From: Rhina ancylostomus
Taxonomy: Eukaryota
Direction of reading: 5' to 3'
NCBI GenBank assembly: GCA_030265395.1
Contig: JARFYF010000104.1
Span: forward strand, 79,560,013-79,624,012
DNA length: 64,000 bases
How positions within the stretch are numbered: position 1 is the first letter of the stretch; the number at the start of each line of letters is the position of its first letter. A program made the position numbers and the translations under genes. Positions 4,104 through 53,123 of this stretch are shown here, in pieces. The notes under the pieces are model-generated. The model was not told where the DNA came from and ran no database searches. It was given only the letters and a program-made list of their open reading frames with translations.

Positions 4104-5507
4104 TACAGCACCACAATGACATTTTCTTTGCAATCTCTATCTGTGACTAAGTTTTTATACAGTACTTCAAAAATAACATGCATTTTCATAAAATTATTAA
4201 AACACCAGATTAGTACTATGTCCTTCAATATGGAAGATAATATTAATAAGATGAATCACTTAGAGATCAATGAGATAGATGTTCGTAAGAGGCTAAGAGA
4301 ACTCATAACCAATGATGGAACCAACGATGGCGGATGGCGCTACTTAATTTTAGGTGCTAGAAGTACAGAGGGATATAATCACACTGACAAAATGTAACAA
4401 AACTGGAAACATGCTGAAATGACATTCCTTTCAGAAAAGGTAACGATTAAACCAGCAGTCTCCAGACCAATCTATGTTGCATTAGCAATTTGCAAATAGT
4501 GAATCAGAAGTACACGAGATTCACCCCCTGAAAATATTTACTGAAATTGAGATTTATGGGAAATTAACCTGTATTAATTTTCAAAACAAGAGTATGATGG
4601 ACAGATTTAAGAATGGTTTCAATTGCTACAAACTATCAGGAAACACACCTTTTTTTTGTGATAAGGACTATATTTCCAGGAATGAATGCCTTGAATGGCT
4701 TACTTTCAGCAGTAACATCAGCTTAGAGGATTTGTAAATAAAATTGGGAGAAGAACTGAAGTAAAAGGTTTGACTTAAGTTAAACAAAAAAATTACACAA
4801 GGATTTCCATAAATAAGATTTTGCCTTAGTGCACCACCACTAGTAAGATTTGTGATCTTACAATCAATAATGAAAAAATTAAGTTGGTTAGCTTTCCAGT
4901 CAAAACGACAAAGTTGCAGATCAGGAAATTTCATTAGGGTTTCTTCCCCAAATTCAAAGTTAGCCACAGAGAAAGGTCTGATTTATGTAAAGCAATCAAT
5001 TACAAAAAAGGGGAGAATTAATGTTGCTCCCCAGAAAAATGGGGGAATTCGTGTTGATCAACAGGTAAAATTTAAATTTCCTAAAGGAATGCAATTGTGG
5101 TAATGTCCTTATGCCTGGTAGAATGACTATAACTCTTTGTTAGTAGATCGATGTTATGTTACGAGCCAGGTTAAGGAAATGGAATTTGTTTCTTCCTCCT
5201 CAGGCAGTGGTAAAAAATGTTTCAGGAACAGGACTCTATGAAAATGCTAAATCAAACTTGCATTATTTCACTTCTCAGAGCTTTATGAGGCCAGGAATTT
5301 CTTCAGAACTTCATAGCTCCTTTGGAATATTCTAGGCCAGGTATCCTTGCTCAGCAGCATGGTGGAGCAGGAGAATATCAAAATAATGCTTCTAACCAAT
5401 CTTAATCTAGTGGGTTGAGGCTTGACTTCAGTTTCATTTTCTCACAACGTTACAAGGTTAACAGCTGAAACAGTAAAGAGCAGTTAACAGATGACAGGCT
5501 TGATTAC

Positions 5508-5572
5508 CGGTGGCTGTGGGCAAGATGAATGGATCCCTCAGGAAAAGCAGCACTGGCTGGTGGGATAGTTTG
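5508..5572 (-). CDS. SNX24: SNX24 internal coding exon (exon 6 equivalent)
   Basis: gacctttccag|C AAA CTA TCC CAC CAG CCA GTG CTG CTT TTC CTG AGG GAT CCA TTC ATC TTG CCC ACA GCC ACC G|gtaatc. 65 nt, phase 2/1, KLSHQPVLLFLRDPFILPTAT; human has KLSHQPVLLFLRDPYVLPAAS. Confidence 0.93.
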
Positions 5573-7062
5573 CTGGAAAGGTCAAGGACAAGAATATCAG
5601 TATCCTGAAACTGCAAACATCAAGTAGTGTACAACATATACCAAATTGTTTTCAAACCACAATATAATGAACTGTGAAAGAATAAAGAGCAGTCAGGAAC
5701 AGATCATTACATTTCACTATGGTCTCTAAAAGTGTAATTTGGTGAACATGTTCATCTTATAGTTTGAAGTGTAAGTAACATTATTCTGCCATATCACGAC
5801 GAACATTGTCATTGTTTGTATAGGAATTAACAAACATTGAATCAAGTGGCTTTTTAACATTAATTTAACAATCAACATGTTTCTTAAATAAATAACATCT
5901 GCAAAATATTATCCATGAGCATTCAATTAGACCAAGCTGAGAAATTCATCTCTGGTTACCAGTGCTAAAGGCATGCCAGAATTTTGTCAACTGATTGTAA
6001 TCATCTTTGAATAATTAACTCCATAGAATGGATGAGGTCAGTACAAATGGCGGCGGATTTTCTTGCACTCATTTACCATTCAAGCCAGAGCCAACCCCCA
6101 TTCATCACCATCCACCCTTTCCTACCCCTGTTTCTCCGACTCTGACTGATATTTATTGACACTTCATCTTGGAACCTGATAAGATGACTGGATGTCACTA
6201 ACCGATTCTAACTGAAAGAGGAATTTGTCATTAGAACAATTCTCAAGTTTATAATGAGAATAAAATATATGTATTTTTTCAATAGATTTGTGCATGTCAA
6301 AAATTACAGGCTTGCAGAGTGTTTTTCAAAAAGGTACCTCTAATATATATGAAATAGTATGCAAGGTGAATCCAGAATATTACCTCAAAGTAAATATAGG
6401 CAATGGGATCAAAGAGCACATATGAAGAGTAAACCTTAAAAAAAAATGGCAAAATGTCTCCAATAAGGGGAGGTAAATACCGATACAATTTAATGCACTG
6501 GAATACTCAAAATGTGATTGGAGATTACTAGTGCTCGATGAATGGATTTCAGTGGACCAGATGACCTTTTCTTATCCTTGTCGATTTTAAGTTCTTTTAA
6601 CAGCAATCCAAGTCAGAGCAGAGGCGTGGACAATAGTTGTATAAATGTGGTTTACATTTCTTTGAACCGCAATCTAATAGAGATGCTTTAAATGATAAAG
6701 GCATTCATTGGGAAACAACTTAGACTGCTGGTGAATCCAGAATAAGGACCATGTTATAACTCTCCACTTAAATCCATTGCCCCATTTAATAGGATCTGAA
6801 ATGAGGAGAGATATCTGGCTAGTGAAAATATTACTTTGATCAGATCCAAGAGAATGAAATACCAAAGATGCCAGATTGCCAAATCTCCAGTAATAACTCA
6901 GAGGTAATTAACCATTGTGGATCAAAAGAATCTGATGTTAATTACAGGATCTGTTGATCTAGTGGTCAGCAATGTGTCATTACCTTGCCACTGACCGTAA
7001 ATTCTAAACGATTCTCTCTTTTAGACAGATTGTATCTCTATACATTTAGACAGGGGACCTAC

Positions 7063-7095
7063 CTGAATTCTTCAGATTCATAGTCTTCAATGGAG
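7063..7095 (-). CDS. SNX24: SNX24 33-nt micro-exon (exon 5 equivalent)
   Basis: ttttattttag|C TCC ATT GAA GAC TAT GAA TCT GAA GAA TTC AG|gtaggt. Phase 2/2, (G)SIEDYESEEF(S); corresponds to human SFDETESEESS. Too short for the ORF track. Confidence 0.9.
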
Positions 7096-8404
7096 CTAAA
7101 ATAAAAATTATTTTGACACATTAGTATCTTACATTTTATTTGTCCAGTATTTATTTTATAGAGATATAACAAATTATGATTTGTCAGTTATTCAACTTTT
7201 TGTCCGACAAATGCTTTCATTTCACATCTTCAAGGCAGAACACCTTCCTATTGATCACATGTAAATAATTACTGAATTTCATAGAAATGTAAGGGATTAC
7301 AATATCGGGGAGCTGTCAAAGTCCCAGCTGCCTGAGAAAGAGCTATGGCAACAGATCCCACCTTACAGCTCTCAGACCACATTCTCATACATTATGGGAT
7401 TTCAATTATGCATGAAAGTTCCTGCCAATGCACTGAAGGTTTCTGCCTCAACCACCCTTTCATGCAATGAGCACCAATCCTAAACATTCCCTTGGGTGAC
7501 AAATATTTTTCCTAACTCGGCTCTAATCCTTCAGACTCCTATATAGATGGTCCATTCCCTTCACTCACTGTTGGTGGCTGGACTTCCCGCCAACTGCACC
7601 ATGTAGAATTTTAAACTGGCAGTGTTGGGGATTTGGGAGCAAGGTCGGGTGTGAGGGGTGGGTGGGAATTTGTGCAGGATATAGGTAACCCAAACTTCAC
7701 AGAACTTCAGTGAAGGGACAGTAGTGTTTGAAAAGCTGAATCTGGAGACATGGACCAGACGGGTGGTGGTAGTCAACACATTTTTTTAAGGGGAAATTAT
7801 CTAAAGTAAAAGGTGGCATAAAACTAAGAGGGAATCATGTGGCAATGGGATTAGTTTTTTTATTTCCCTAGCAAAGAGCTTGCACAGGGAGACCACTTTA
7901 TCCAATTTAATTTTTTTACTGTTGCCCAGTTCATGTTGGGTGATATTATATTGTTTTATGGGACGCAATGCAGGTTGTTGTGGCTGTCAATTTAGGCATA
8001 TCCATGAACACATCTAGTGGACTTTGTTAACTGGTCTAGCAAAAGCTAAATGCATGAATTGTTTAATTCCCAGTACCTAAAACTCAAGAGATTTCAAACT
8101 TGTTTCTTGGAAATCTAGGGCATAAAAGTTGGTACTATAGCACTTATTGTTTAGGTGAGCAGGTGCCAAGTTATTTCCAAGGACAGAGAATAAAGAGGTA
8201 TGCTCTCAGGAGAAAACCAGTCCACCCAGGGTGTTTACTGAGGAATTCTCCCACCTGAACCTCAGCAACAAATGATGTGCGAGTCACTGGCTTCAATAAG
8301 CAAGTCCCCAATGAAATATGCCAGCCAGCTGAAACTTCAATGCAGGGCATTAACACCAATGTGCTTTTATGCATTGGGCTTCTTCTGGGTTGGAGCTAGC
8401 CATC

Positions 8405-9483: not shown

Positions 9484-9578
9484 CCACAACTTTCAATTTT
9501 TGGCAGAGAAGGAAGATGACGAATATTAAGAAAGTCCAAGAATATCTTCGGCAGTTCCTCATTTTCAATCAGAATTGT
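9484..9578 (-). CDS. SNX24: SNX24 internal coding exon (exon 4 equivalent), PX domain C-terminal end
   Basis: gtcttttcacag|ACA ATT CTG...AGT TGT GG|gtaagt. 95 nt, phase 0/2, TILIENEELPKIFLDFLNIRHLPSLPKIESC(G); matches recalled human AVILENEELPKLFLDFLNVRHLPSLPKAESCG. Confidence 0.95.
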
Positions 9579-22107: not shown

Positions 22108-22233
22108 GTTGTGATGTCTGGCTACCTTCTATCCTTTGGCTCAAAAGAAGTTAGTGCAGACAGGCCAGAAAGAATCCAATTGCCATTTATAAAAGAACAA
22201 AAGCCTTATTGCAATTGTAATGACCTCATTCTG

Positions 22234-22760
22234 TGCTGTTAATTCTCTGTATTTAAGGAAGGATGTGCTGGCCTTGGAGAGGGTCCAGAAAAGGTACACA
22301 AGAATGATCCCAAGAATGAAGGGCTTAACATTTGAGGAGCAATTGATGTCTCTGGGCCTGTACCTGATGGAGTTCAGAAGGATGACAGTGGATCTCATTG
22401 AAACCTACCAGATACTGAAAAGCCTGGATAGAGCAGATGTGGAGAGGATGTTTCTATTAGGAAGACAGTCTAGGATCAGAGGGCACAGCCTCAGAATAAA
22501 GGAACATCCCTTTAAAACTGAGATGAGGAGGAATTTCTTTGGCCAAAGGGTGGTGAATCTGTGGAATTCATTGCCACAGAGGGCTGTGGAGGCCAAGTCA
22601 TTGGGTGTATTTGAGACAGAGATTGATAGCTTCTTGATTGATTAAGGGTTACGGGGAGAAGGCGGAACAATAGGGTTGAAAAAAATCAGCCATGATTGAA
22701 TGGCAGAGCAGACTCAATGGGCTGAATGGCCTAATTCTTCTCCTAGATCTATGGTCTTAT
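22234..22760 (+). mobile_element. CR1-type LINE 3' end, relatively young
   Basis: Open ORF 22220-22645 (LRKDVLALERVQKRYTRMIP...RRNFFGQRVVNLWNSLPQ) followed by the CR1 3' UTR. Confidence 0.9.
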
Positions 22761-35545: not shown

Positions 35546-36733
35546 CCTTCAAGTCCAAATCACTGATACATTTTTAAAAGGTTAGGGATCTAGCACTGAA
35601 CCCTGCAGGACAAAGTGCCTGCAGCTTTGTAACACTACTGTAACACTAAAAACCTGAGCCACTTTTGAATCCAATCTTGATATTTTCCATGGAGTCCCAA
35701 GAGCTTTTACTTTTCTTATCAGTCTATGACTTTCAATCTTGTCAAATAATTTTCTATAATCTATTCATACCACATCATATACACAATACCCAAGTTTCCG
35801 GTTACATCCAGGGCCAACAGAAAACACCAAGACCAGCAAGACAGAAGGAATATTTTCTCTCTTATCATGTACAGTGGCATGGGATACATAATATTTTTGT
35901 ATTATGTTTCTGGTACTGGTTCTAACAGCTAGAAAAGATTAGATTTATGGAGCACCTCGAGTGGAGTATAGAAATACATTTCCTTATGAAGGAGATTATA
36001 ATAATCTTAAAAGGGATCACATATCTGCACCAAGCTGACATTAGTTAATTGGGAAAAATGGAAGCCAAAAGCCATTCTACTTCTCTTTCCTGCAAAACTG
36101 TATTCTGAGACACAATTATGATCTGATGTGTATTTATGAAGGAGATGTATACAAAAATCGAATGAAATACATATAAACATGACAAGTTGAATTTAAATAC
36201 TGAACAACTTCTTAGATATATGCATGTTTAAGGTCATTGGGCTACAGTAATTAATTTCTCAACGAACAATGTAGTGCTAGAGGGTATGTCATGTAGAGTT
36301 AGCCCATTGGAATAATTTGATATAAGTGAAATGCTTTTTAGTTTGGTTTCTCTATGCTCTTTATGGAATCATCATAGGCACTGTATCCAACGATACGAGT
36401 TAAGATCTGTGGAAAGCTAGCAATACCATATTTGATTTGCGAGCATCCACAAGTTTCTAAAATTCCGTAATACTAATATTTCCCAATGAAAATATCTTCC
36501 TTTATGCATAAAATAATGATGATGATTGTGCTTCTTTAAAAAGTTGCCTTGCACCTTACTTGGAAAATAAATGGACCATAATAGATATTTAAAAGGATAC
36601 TCCTGATTACTCTGGATAAACAAATCTGAAATGTGCCACTGCAATATTCAGTTAAGATGAGAAGATGACGGATGTTTGGTGACCAGATGAGAATCACGCT
36701 TCCCATTCAGTGGAATTTGTATCACTACTAGTA

Positions 36734-37553
36734 CTCCAAATGAGCTCAATGCATTCAATGTAAGTTTTGCACAGAAAGGGATTGAAATATCACCCTCGCA
36801 GCCTCCAATGCACTTGAACCCAGTCACCATTGCAGATGTAAGATTAGGCTTCCGGAGAGTGAACCCGCTGAAGGCATCTGGCCTGGATGGTGTTCCCAGT
36901 CATGTCCTTAGATCCTGCGCAGATCAGCTGGCGGGGTATTTGCAGACATTTTTAACCTCTCCCTGCTTCAGTTTGAGGTTCCCGCCTGCTTTAAGATGAC
37001 CATTATCATAAAAGAATCCTATCCAGATGCATCATGGCTTGGTATTGCAACTGCTCTGCCAGGGACTGCAAGAAACTGCAGAGTTGTGGACACAGCCCAG
37101 CGCATCATGGAATCCAACTTTCCCTGGACACTGACTCTGTCTACACTTCTCGCTACCTCAGTAAAGCAGCCAGCAAAATCAAAGACCCTACCCACCCTGG
37201 ACATTCTCTCTTCTCCCCACTTCCATCACGCAGAAGATACAAAAGACTGAATATGCACGTACCACCAGGGTCAAGGACAGCTTTTTTCCCCGCCGTCATA
37301 GAACTATTGAACAGTTCCCTAATACGATAAGATGGACTCTTGACCTCACAATCTACCTGGTTATGATCTTGCACCTTATTGTCTACCTGCACTGCACTTT
37401 ATCTGCAGTGTAACACTTTATTCTGCACTTTGTTGTTGTTTTACCTTGTTCTACCTCAATGCACTGTGTAATGAATTGATCTGTATGGACGATATGCAAG
37501 ACGTTTTCCACTGTACCTCGGTACAAGTGACAATAATAAACCAATTTACCAAT
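36734..37553 (+). mobile_element. Rex1/Babar-like LINE, internally deleted
   Basis: 'ELNAF', 'RVNPLKASGLDGVPSHVLRSCADQLAG' and 'KAASKIKDPTHPGHSLFSPLPSRRRY' motifs, then the 3' tail. Confidence 0.85.
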
Positions 37554-37569
37554 GTGCCTTGTTTTCTAG

Positions 37570-37973
37570 GAAAACGCAAAGGTTTTGAATTCAACTTATC
37601 ATTGCAACAAGGCTATGGAATTTATAAGATATCGCAAGCAAGTAACTGCACTGCCGAGGAAAGTAAGTCTCTGTCTTACCAGAACCTCACTGCTCACCAA
37701 ACCGACGGATGCAAATTTCTCCCTGCGGGGACGGAGGGAATTCTAGGCAATGCCCCAATCGAGATCAGCACCACCGCTCCGCTGGACAGCTCCCCGCGGG
37801 CTCCACCTGTCCAGGGCACGGATCCGCGCAAAGTCAGTGAGCAGGACGCTGGAAAATCGCTCGCCGGCTCTACAGACGGCACAGAAGGCAAACTGGTGCA
37901 GGAGGAAGGGCGCAAACCAGAACTTGTGGATTGGGAATGGTGCCGGAGTAAGTCAGAAAGGACTCCCAGACAG
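37570..37973 (+). CDS. Putative coding exon of an unidentified gene nested antisense in the SNX24 intron
   Basis: Acceptor ccttgttttctag|GA at 37569/70 and consensus donor CAG|GTGAGT at 37973/74. 404 nt stop-free within ORF 37446-38000; GC/CpG-rich relative to flanks; no repeat similarity recognised. Confidence 0.45.
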
Positions 37974-38126
37974 GTGAGTGCACTCAGAAGGAAAAGGTGA
38001 GTGCAAACCATATCCACATGGGCTCCGTACAGTGAAATCCAATCCCCAGGGAAACTCCTTATTAACATCACAAGTGTTAGTTGAGGTTGAATTTGTTTAT
38101 TGACAATTTTAAGGGAGTGGTCACCA

Positions 38127-38503
38127 TAGAACACAGAGCATAACAGAACAGTACAGGCCCTTCAGCCCACAATGTTGTGCCGGTATTTTACCCTACTCTA
38201 AGATCTATCTAACCCTTCCCTCCCACATCGCCCACCATTTCTCTGTCATTCATGTGGCTATCTAAGATTCTCTTAAACGTTCCTAATGTATCTGCCCCCA
38301 CAACCTCTGCTGGAAGTATGTTCCACTCTGTGTAAAAAAAACTGACATCCCCCTTATACATTCCGCCAATCACCTTAAAATTATGCCCCCTCGTGTTAGC
38401 CATTGTCATTCTGGGAAAAAGCTGCTGACTGTCCACTCGATCTGTGCCTCTTATCATCTTGTACACCTCTATCAAGTCACCTCTCATCCTCCTTCACTCC
38501 AAA
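38127..38503 (-). mobile_element. CR1-type LINE 3' end, running into a gap
   Basis: ORF 38209-38487 MRGDLIEVYKMIRG...TRGHNFKV; simple-repeat tail 'catagaacacagagcataacag'. Confidence 0.9.
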
Positions 38504-40759
38504 NNNNNNNNNNNNNNNNNNNNNNNNNNNNNNNNNNNNNNNNNNNNNNNNNNNNNNNNNNNNNNNNNNNNNNNNNNNNNNNNNNNNNNNNNNNNNNNNN
38601 NNNTAGGAAGAATGTTGATGTTGAGAAATGAATCATTGTAACCAAGATTTGAATTTCAACATCTGAATGAAATTTTAAATCTTGTTAGCCCTTGTACTCA
38701 GCCACCCAATGCCAGTATCAACTATTCTCAAGTCAGATATAGCTGCAGAGTTGAACTCCCTTTGCCCTATGCTTTACTTCAACTGTATCGCAGTAACCCC
38801 TAATGCATTGAGCTATATTTTTCACTTTCTGTGCTAAGGCTTCTCTAAGATTGCCAGTTTAATGCTGAATTAGAATATTTTTCTTTTGCTGTTGCCCAAA
38901 ACCAGTGAGAAATAATGCATAAGCATCCACAGAGAAAATTATAATACATTCCTCTTGATTCTGAGAATAAGGATCAAGAATCTTGATTAATTGTATATTA
39001 AGTAAAAATACTTTTATAATAAGTCATAACAGGATTTTTACACTTTACAAGATTTTACAATACTAACCCCTGAAGTGTAAAGAGATTTTCTTCTCTTTGA
39101 CTTCTCAGATTGCCAGTTCATATCAATTAATTATTAATTTTACATGATGCACAGTGCCTAACTGGAAAATCAAGTTTCTCTCTACCCCAGCGTGGGCAGA
39201 TAGCTAAGTTAATTAATGTTCAGATTCAGTCAGCAGAATCAGGAATTGCAAATTTAATTTCACTAAATAATTTGTAACCTGTAAACTCTGGAGATCAATG
39301 CTGTTTCTCCACTTTGATTCTCTCACTAATTCTCTATCCTCCAGTTCATATTAATTCCCAGACCTTGTTAATTATTTTGCAGCTATTTAGCCATTTAAAA
39401 AAAATGTAATTCCATTGCAGGGTCCATTACCAGTATGACCCTGCCTCTGCCAGAAACCCTCAGCAGATTAAGGGCTCTGACTGGAGCCCATTCATTTTCA
39501 GTCCAAGTCTAATTACTGCAGTCTGCCTTCTAACAGGTACCTCTGCTATCTTGCATTTGAGTTCTGTGGTTGCTTCAGAGGACAAATACAAAAGATTAAT
39601 TGTTTGCTTTGTTTCATCTCTGGAGAACCGAAGGCGCTTAATCAAGAAAAATAATTCCTTCCAGTGTTGACGTGGTGACTTGACCAGACTATAATTGCAG
39701 AAAGCAGAAGTACTGAGGTGCATTTCGTAAGTGTAATTTCTTTTTAGCTGGATTGTATCTTCAATACATGTGAAACAAATTTTAAAAAAATTTTGGAAAA
39801 TTGATGAGTCTATTAACATTTCTCTCAGCAAGTAATCTGGTTGTTGGATGTTTTTAAATTCTGATTGATAATGTTGGGCTGTACTGTCATTTGTAATGTC
39901 TGATAGTTCACAAATCCAATCAAGGAGACAATAGTAAAAAGCATCTCCAAATTGTTCTTAATTGCAAGAGCACAGGCAGTGGTAAATGCTGCGATACCTC
40001 CAATTAAAAAGAACCTCCTTTCTACTGAGAGCCATTAGTCCACATTTCACTGATCTGATAAGCAAGTCATCAAATGGTGAAACAGATTAATTGCATTCAA
40101 TTAATTGTAGAATAACTGAAGGTCAAACAGAGCTTAACAATAACAAATGCAAATAGAATAGTAACTGCACAATGAACTCTAAACTTGATTGAGTCGAGTA
40201 CATATAGAATAATGAGTGGCCATGGTGGAGTCACAGAGGTTTAATAGCGCACGTGTGTTGATTCTACTAATAGTTTGGTTAGCTGCTGCTAGAAATACAT
40301 TACAGAATCACATAGAACGTGCAGCTGATGAAAAGGGCACGGTCCAACTGGCTTGCTGGTTATAGTGTTATAAAAACTCAACCATATTTCACAAAAAAAA
40401 CTAATGTAGGCTGAAATGATAAGTCAAATCAATATACAAGAANNNNNNNNNNNNNNNNNNNNNNNNNNNNNNNNNNNNNNNNNNNNNNNNNNNNNNNNNN
40501 NNNNNNNNNNNNNNNNNNNNNNNNNNNNNNNNNNNNNNNNNNAAATCAATATACAAGAAAAACAAATAAGGATATTTTAAGCCTTTCTGCTACGCGTTAT
40601 TCTGCCTACCTTACTGACTTCGCTGTCCACCTCACTTCTGACCAGCTGATCAAACACTGAAAAATATAGAAAGTTATTTTGTTTTTAAGCTTTTGTAAAA
40701 TTTAAGCTGCACTAAAAAATTTCCAATTTTATAAATTGAAATTAGATTCACTACTGTTA

Positions 40760-53018: not shown

Positions 53019-53123
53019 CTGGAGGTAGGCTTCCAAACCATGACGTCGCTGTTCTAACACTTTAGGTACCCAGTTCCTCACGTGCTTTGAAGGCATTTCA
53101 GGCGCTTTGATGCTTTTCTTCAG
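53019..53123 (-). CDS. SNX24: SNX24 internal coding exon (exon 3 equivalent), PX domain
   Basis: ttcttctgaaaag|CTG AAG AAA...CTC CAG|gtaaac. 105 nt, phase 0/0, LKKSIKAPEMPSKHVRNWVPKVLEQRRHGLEAYLQ (PX proline loop and the RRxGLExYLQ helix). Confidence 0.96.

What the first reader, a model, noticed from the sequence alone, without database searches (positions are those of the whole stretch)
37570..37973. Candidate coding exon of an unidentified gene nested antisense inside the 43-kb SNX24 intron
Seen: a 404-nt stop-free plus-strand segment bounded by a pyrimidine-rich acceptor (ccttgttttctag) and a consensus donor (CAG|GTGAGT). It is visibly more GC- and CpG-rich than the CpG-depleted surroundings and sits between two LINEs without resembling either. 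It translates (phase 1 to 0) to KRKGFEFNLSLQQGYGIYKISQASNCTAEESKSLSYQNL...ELVDWEWCRSKSERTPRQ: a low-complexity linker ending in an aromatic/basic motif next to the donor. I do not recognise the protein. Inference: one exon of a nested antisense gene, or a CpG-island-like element. An alternative acceptor (tcttaccag, 37682) keeps the same frame.
Basis: partly seen in the sequence, partly recalled or inferred. Interest (0 to 1): 0.7.

Follow-up and report, generated by a model that had tools for sequence, protein, structure and literature searches.

The report
Misplaced GPR149 exon in ray assembly
The stretch is a real coding exon, the third exon of the known receptor gene GPR149, whose other three exons lie on a different chromosome-scale sequence, so its place inside the SNX24 intron is most likely a genome-assembly error rather than a new nested gene.

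Summary
The exon is real but not new. 37570-37973 encodes residues 378-512 of GPR149 (90% identical to sawfish GPR149). In this genome GPR149 exons 1, 2 and 4 lie on another chromosome-scale contig, C94, beside DHX36. Exon 3 is missing there, and 20,943 of the 44,709 bases between exons 2 and 4 are N. The window's exon fits that hole exactly: the splice phases match, and the four exons add up to 702 codons, the length of the sawfish protein. It breaks 0 of 33 invariant columns and is the only copy found. It lies on an island between a LINE with a one-off internal join and a second LINE that ends at a 100-N gap; both repeat types are 10-17 times denser at C94. In 14 of 14 sharks and rays compared, GPR149 and SNX24 lie on different contigs. 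Best reading: an assembly misjoin (0.87). A real LINE-embedded duplicate (0.08) or a real move (0.03) is not excluded. The scan earlier noted a similar case elsewhere in this genome (e1-9902338, not tested here).

The parts
37570..37973 (+). GPR149 exon 3, 404 nt, phase 1 to phase 0; residues 378-512 of the 702-aa protein, in the intracellular C-terminal tail
37554..37569 (+). Pyrimidine tract and AG acceptor of exon 3
   Evidence: sequence; the phase matches the exon 2 donor on C94
37974..38125 (+). GT donor and first 152 nt of non-repeat GPR149 intron 3
   Evidence: one contig of run X1 covers 37527-38171 with 0 differences
36735..37009 (+). 5' piece of a LINE (RT region), tied by one contig in each run to the unique DNA on its left
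   Evidence: (contigs over 36200-36930)
37007..37553 (+). 3' piece of the same LINE family. About 860 nt present in a fuller copy (L031) are missing at the join, which has a 3-nt overlap and was found once in the genome
   Evidence: Pfam RVT_1 and PF09004 on sister copy L035; the label Rex1/Babar-like is recalled, from no call
38126..38503 (-). 3' end of a second LINE family, cut off by the gap
   Evidence: tblastn E 2e-15 to the LINE frame at 22193-22642; the label CR1-like is recalled
38504..38603 (.). 100-N assembly gap; its flanks do not overlap
53019..53123 (-). SNX24 exon 3 (host gene, upstream end of the intron)
9484..9578 (-). SNX24 exon 4 (host gene, downstream end of the intron; ends approximate)

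Best explanation
The segment is exon 3 of the orphan receptor gene GPR149, and it most likely belongs between exons 2 and 4 on contig C94, having probably been put into the SNX24 intron on C104 by an assembly error. Shown: its identity, the matching splice phases, the hole in the C94 gene, the single copy found, and the repeat-and-gap borders. Inferred: a piece of about 1.5 kb (LINE 3' end, exon, second LINE) was used to fill a gap inside a related LINE copy in the SNX24 intron, joined on the left within the LINE and left open with 100 N on the right. In the animal the exon would be spliced in cis into an ordinary 702-aa GPR149 and supply the first half of its long cytoplasmic tail.
For: Identity: all named rows among the 120 listed hits (of 436) are GPR149 except two hypothetical proteins and two rabbit models labelled DHX36; best hit 90%. 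Home locus: exons 1, 2 and 4 on C94 at 89%, 97% and 98% identity to sawfish, with DHX36 exons 51-122 kb downstream on the same strand. Fit: exon 2 donor phase 1, this exon 1 to 0, exon 4 acceptor phase 0; 939+193+404+573 nt = 702 codons plus stop; skipping the exon would shift the frame. Room at home: 20,943 of 44,709 bases are N. Single copy: 1 match by DNA; 1 significant match among 5 candidates by protein. Constraint: 0 of 33 invariant columns broken, and the lineage-specific changes (9:4 against sawfish) match the other exons (23:12, Fisher p=1.0). In a related organism (run X2) the exon contig has 9 differences and 0 gaps in 418 nt, against 33 and 4 gaps in 731 nt of flank (p=0.049). Provenance of the flanks: BLAST hits per 100 kb to the left LINE 3' piece are 29.5 at C94 against 2.8 at C104, and to the right repeat 15.9 against 0.9. 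Weak hints only: one X1 contig spans the exon with no other letters, at depth 6.12 against 6.5 for the left flank (the tool says depth is no copy number, and X1 may be the assembly's own sample). Relatives: GPR149 and SNX24 come from contigs of different length in 14 of 14 sharks and rays (three species with ambiguous rows dropped). Size: the filler 37010-38603 is 1594 nt, and the missing LINE middle plus a 3' end would be about 1410 nt.
Against: No read or contig was seen that ties the exon to C94, and I could not assign it to a particular C94 gap. The left join at 37007-37010 has only a 3-nt overlap and occurs once in the genome. That looks like a biological deletion or template switch more than a k-mer misjoin, so the assembler's switch would have to lie there as a gap merge or elsewhere within 36931-37526. 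The exon sits inside an ungapped 8.35-kb contig (30151-38503). The lineage shows twice as many derived changes as sawfish over the whole gene (32:16, p=0.03), which could mean relaxed selection; I had no control gene. Some C94 N runs could be withheld stretches rather than gaps; the tool does not tell them apart. An earlier, unchecked note on a similar case in this genome leaned slightly towards a real duplicate.
Confidence: 0.87

Rival explanations
1. A real duplicate: a break inside the SNX24-intron LINE was repaired from the related LINE in GPR149 intron 2 and copied exon 3 along with it. The working original is hidden in one of the C94 gaps, and the window's copy is an orphan, antisense to SNX24 and most likely unused.
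For: One-off LINE join with a 3-nt overlap. Such microhomology-guided gap filling is described for DNA transposons in animals, including between chromosomes (PMC8277862, section 8). The C94 gaps are large enough to hide the original. A similar anatomy was noted elsewhere in this genome (e1-9902338, unchecked).
Against: No second allele or copy shows in X1 over the exon, and its contig depth is like that of the single-copy flank (weak). The exon is no more changed than the other exons and breaks no invariant column. The paper reports a bias to nearby, same-chromosome templates and deals with DNA transposons, not LINEs. No target-site duplication of 8 nt or more was found between the left flank and the right side of the gap.
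Confidence: 0.08
2. A real move: exon 3 left the GPR149 locus and now lies on another chromosome, so the gene is either recently dead or is put together by trans-splicing.
For: Taken at face value the assembly shows this. Only one copy was found. The gene shows 32:16 derived changes against sawfish.
Against: All four exons are intact, with splice sites and 98% identity in exon 4, which is unlike a dead gene. No cut-and-paste element borders the exon. Half of the home interval is unsequenced. Full-length one-contig models exist in the relatives.
Confidence: 0.03
3. One reading: one exon of a separate, unidentified gene nested antisense in SNX24, or a CpG-island-like element.
For: Position and strand in the assembly; raised GC and CpG.
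Against: The peptide is GPR149 over its whole length. No other GPR149 exon lies in 224 kb of C104. Coding sequence accounts for the CpG content (inference).
Confidence: 0.02

Closest known systems
GPR149 of Pristis pectinata (XP_051874607.1, P0001) and other vertebrates
   Same: 90% identical over all 134 residues. The exon borders fall where the C94 exons 2 and 4 end and begin, and the total length is 702 aa. DHX36 is the neighbour of the C94 locus, as in human (recalled) and as implied by a rabbit GPR149-DHX36 fusion model (P0072).
   Different: Only the assembled position of exon 3, on another contig and inside SNX24 intron 3.
Mis-joins in short-read vertebrate assemblies (bioRxiv 10.1101/2020.05.22.110833)
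   Same: A repeat-bounded small piece next to a gap, in a gap-rich assembly (14 N runs in the window; 65,984 contigs). The paper counts about 5,000-8,000 mis-joins in short-read assemblies of a hummingbird (passages read).
   Different: That this assembly is short-read based is my inference from its gaps. The misjoin itself was not shown with spanning reads.
Single-copy Pack-TIRs formed by transposition-independent gap filling (PMC8277862)
   Same: Foreign genic DNA inside a transposon copy, with short microhomology at a join.
   Different: The element here is a LINE and not a terminal-inverted-repeat transposon. No parental copy is visible, the element does not resume on the right, and the source is on another chromosome.

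Membership tests
GPR149 orthologue, exon 3 | Full-length sequence match to GPR149 above any other protein | tested here: met
   90% to sawfish, 38-77% to the other listed vertebrates, 99-100% query cover in 119 of 120 listed rows
GPR149 orthologue, exon 3 | Splice phases and length complete the reading frame with exons 1, 2 and 4 | tested here: met
   phase 1 to 0; 702 codons in all
GPR149 orthologue, exon 3 | Conserved motifs intact | tested here: met
   0 of 33 columns invariant in 14 chondrichthyan proteins are broken
GPR149 orthologue, exon 3 | Lies in cis between exons 2 and 4, next to DHX36 | tested here: inconclusive
   Not so in the assembly, but 47% of that interval is N and no spanning read was available
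GPR149 orthologue, exon 3 | Spliced into GPR149 mRNA in this species | not testable with these tools
   No RNA data were laid; see Tried and rejected
Nested antisense gene in SNX24 intron | Further exons of the same gene within the host intron, on the same strand | tested here: not met
   six GPR149 proteins find only exon 3 in 224 kb of C104
Nested antisense gene in SNX24 intron | Same arrangement in relatives | tested here: not met
Transposon-captured duplicate (Pack-element type) | A second, parental copy exists | tested here: inconclusive
   One copy in the assembly and no variant contig in X1; the parent could be in a gap
Transposon-captured duplicate (Pack-element type) | The same element resumes beyond the captured DNA, with a target-site duplication | tested here: inconclusive
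   The right side is a different repeat and then a 100-N gap; no shared word of 8 nt or more
Interspersed repeat | High copy number | tested here: not met
   one match; depth about 6 over the exon against 10^5-10^6 summed over the flanking repeats

The most novel reading that the evidence does not exclude
The placement is real: LINE copies in this ray genome capture intact exons of unrelated genes across chromosomes by LINE-to-LINE repair, leaving GPR149 exon 3 (and perhaps the liprin exon noted elsewhere in this genome) inside other genes' introns. In the extreme form it is the only copy, and GPR149 is assembled by trans-splicing.
Probability: 0.1. Interest if true: 0.55.

Novelty: already known. 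Interest (0 to 1): 0.08.

Why it matters
As it most likely stands, it matters only as a correction: an annotation of this assembly would call GPR149 frameshifted or lost and might invent a nested gene in SNX24, and other lone exons between repeats in this assembly deserve the same suspicion. If the placement were real, it would be a case of exon capture between chromosomes through LINE copies in a cartilaginous fish.

Tried and rejected
RNA: no RNA holder was listed for 37560-37985, which says nothing for or against expression. Linkage: contigs of runs X1 and X2 were laid on 36200-38800 only. No listed piece spans from the unique left flank to the exon or across the gap; the pieces shown within 36931-37526 are at most 124 nt and differ from the window. 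The tool warns that a hole proves nothing, so this is not counted as evidence. One X2 contig runs 113 letters left of 38604; its letters were not shown. Contiguity over the rest of the intron was not tested. Pfam gave no family for the exon peptide or for sawfish GPR149; the precomputed PF28498 and PF28499 labels were not reproduced with the local library. I looked for the home gap on C94 by comparing the edges of the 11 gaps listed (9 lie between exons 2 and 4): none overlaps the island at near identity. The 1872-N gap at 103740972-103742843 has the right repeat types on both sides, but they are different copies. 10 of 24 100-N gaps have overlapping flanks and the one at 38504 does not; this does not discriminate. 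The alternative acceptor at 37682 was rejected on phase. My recalled idea of another enzyme gene nested in the SNX24 intron was not tested, as no domain scan of the whole intron was done. The scan's earlier notes hold no GPR149 look-alike. No structure was predicted, as it would not bear on the question. I make no claim about what is or is not in print: two paper searches were run, neither aimed at GPR149 in rays, and no supplements were read.

Full report
Observation. It has 53.7% GC and CpG o/e 0.76, against 37.7% and 0.22 for the window. It has one match in the 2.2-Gb genome by DNA and one significant match among 5 candidates by protein. SNX24 exons on the minus strand at 53019-53123 and about 9484-9578 enclose it, and SNX2 lies upstream, so the window is the SNX2-SNX24 locus. 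The proposed alternative acceptor at 37682 is out of phase with the main one.

Identity. The peptide found 436 proteins among 737 candidates. Of the 120 listed, the named ones are GPR149, apart from two hypothetical proteins and two rabbit models labelled DHX36. The best is Pristis pectinata GPR149 at 90%, residues 378-512. GPR149 is an orphan class A receptor with a conserved C-terminal domain of about 360 residues without homology to other proteins, and mouse exon 1 encodes the first six transmembrane helices (PMC10822134, passages read). This exon therefore encodes the first half of the tail, which likely explains why it looked like an unrecognisable linker.

The rest of the gene. A search of the genome with sawfish GPR149 gave four places: exons 1, 2 and 4 on C94 (103,767,229-103,768,170; about 103,763,900-103,764,100; 103,718,619-103,719,191, minus strand) and exon 3 only in this window, on C104. 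DHX36 exons follow on C94 at 103.597-103.667 Mb, so C94 is the orthologous site. Exon 2 ends in phase 1, the window's exon runs from phase 1 to phase 0, and exon 4 starts in phase 0. The lengths 939+193+404+573 give 702 codons plus a stop, the length of the sawfish protein. Without this exon the C94 gene would be frameshifted. Between exons 2 and 4, 20,943 of 44,709 bases are N. No other GPR149 exon lies in 224 kb of C104.

Is the exon under constraint? Against 14 chondrichthyan proteins it breaks 0 of 33 invariant columns. Changes derived in this lineage against sawfish are 9:4 in exon 3 and 23:12 in the other three exons (p=1.0). The whole gene shows 32:16 (p=0.03), for which I had no control gene. 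In run X2, from a related organism, one contig covers 37634-38051 with 9 differences and no gaps, against 33 differences and 4 gaps in 731 nt of flank (p=0.049). About a dozen of the flank differences cluster in 25 nt, so this test is generous. Only 4 of the 9 differences were listed; of the 3 in the exon two are silent and one is Ile to Val.

The borders. On the left is a LINE in two pieces, 36735-37009 and 37007-37553. A fuller copy (L031) has about 860 nt between them, and a sister copy carries Pfam RVT_1 and PF09004. The join overlaps by 3 nt and was found once in the genome. Of 39 other scored copies, 38 match mainly one side of it and one spans it at 77%. On the right is the 3' end of another LINE in reverse (38126-38503), cut by a 100-N gap. 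In both runs one contig ties the unique left flank to the 5' LINE piece (36200-36930), and in X1 one contig ties the exon to the adjoining ends of both repeats (37527-38171, 0 differences, depth 6.12 against 6.5). Depth there is no copy number and X1 may be the assembly's own sample, so this is only a weak hint at a single copy. The two repeats that touch the exon are 10 and 17 times denser in 44 kb of sequenced C94 than in 217 kb of C104, and C94 is richer in GC (43.7% against 38.6%). The island therefore looks like C94 DNA.

Relatives. Cetorhinus, Mobula hypostoma and Hemitrygon were dropped because their SNX24 rows are shared between species. For 11 of the 14 the exon 3 region was seen in the protein; the other three are cluster members at 90% identity.

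Mechanism. The most likely account is that a piece of about 1.5 kb that belongs in a C94 gap was used to fill a gap inside a related LINE in the SNX24 intron. The filler with its gap (1594 nt) is close to what the missing LINE middle and 3' end would need (about 1410 nt). This step is inferred: no spanning read shows it, and the short, one-off join could equally be a biological deletion or template switch. Mis-joins number in the thousands in short-read vertebrate assemblies (bioRxiv 10.1101/2020.05.22.110833, passages read); that this assembly is of that kind is my inference from its gaps. The main rival is a real duplicate made by gap-filling repair, as described for DNA transposons (PMC8277862, abstract and section 8 read).

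Verdict. This is a real exon of a known gene, GPR149 exon 3, and its nesting in SNX24 is most likely an assembly artefact (0.87). Interest 0.08; novelty: already known. The family labels Rex1/Babar and CR1, and the human gene order GPR149-DHX36, are recalled and come from no call.

Noticed in passing
window 39463-39957, minus strand: A stop-free frame of 165 codons in DNA of about 35% GC, on the SNX24 strand and just right of the gap; long for such AT-rich DNA. No Pfam family; no homology search was run.
   Followed up: partly
G000:C94:103719192-103763900 (L006-L011): The GPR149 exon 2 to exon 4 interval is 47% N, with five runs of 1.9-4.7 kb. An annotation of this assembly would show GPR149 as frameshifted.
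   Followed up: yes
window and flanks, 100-N gaps: 10 of 24 100-N gaps have flanks that overlap by 6-70 nt, so the run often marks a zero or negative gap.
   Followed up: partly
window 36585-36609: Run X2 shows about a dozen substitutions and two small indels within 25 nt, probably one complex mutation.
   Followed up: no
P0072 and P0039; P0140, P0192, P0195: Public protein models fuse or mislabel neighbouring genes: rabbit GPR149 with DHX36, and SNX2 with SNX24 in Xenopus and sturgeon. They are likely annotation read-throughs and were useful as synteny markers.
   Followed up: partly
GPR149, all four exons: This lineage has twice as many derived amino-acid changes as Pristis (32:16, p=0.03), either a slow sawfish lineage or mildly relaxed selection; no control gene was tested.
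   Followed up: no
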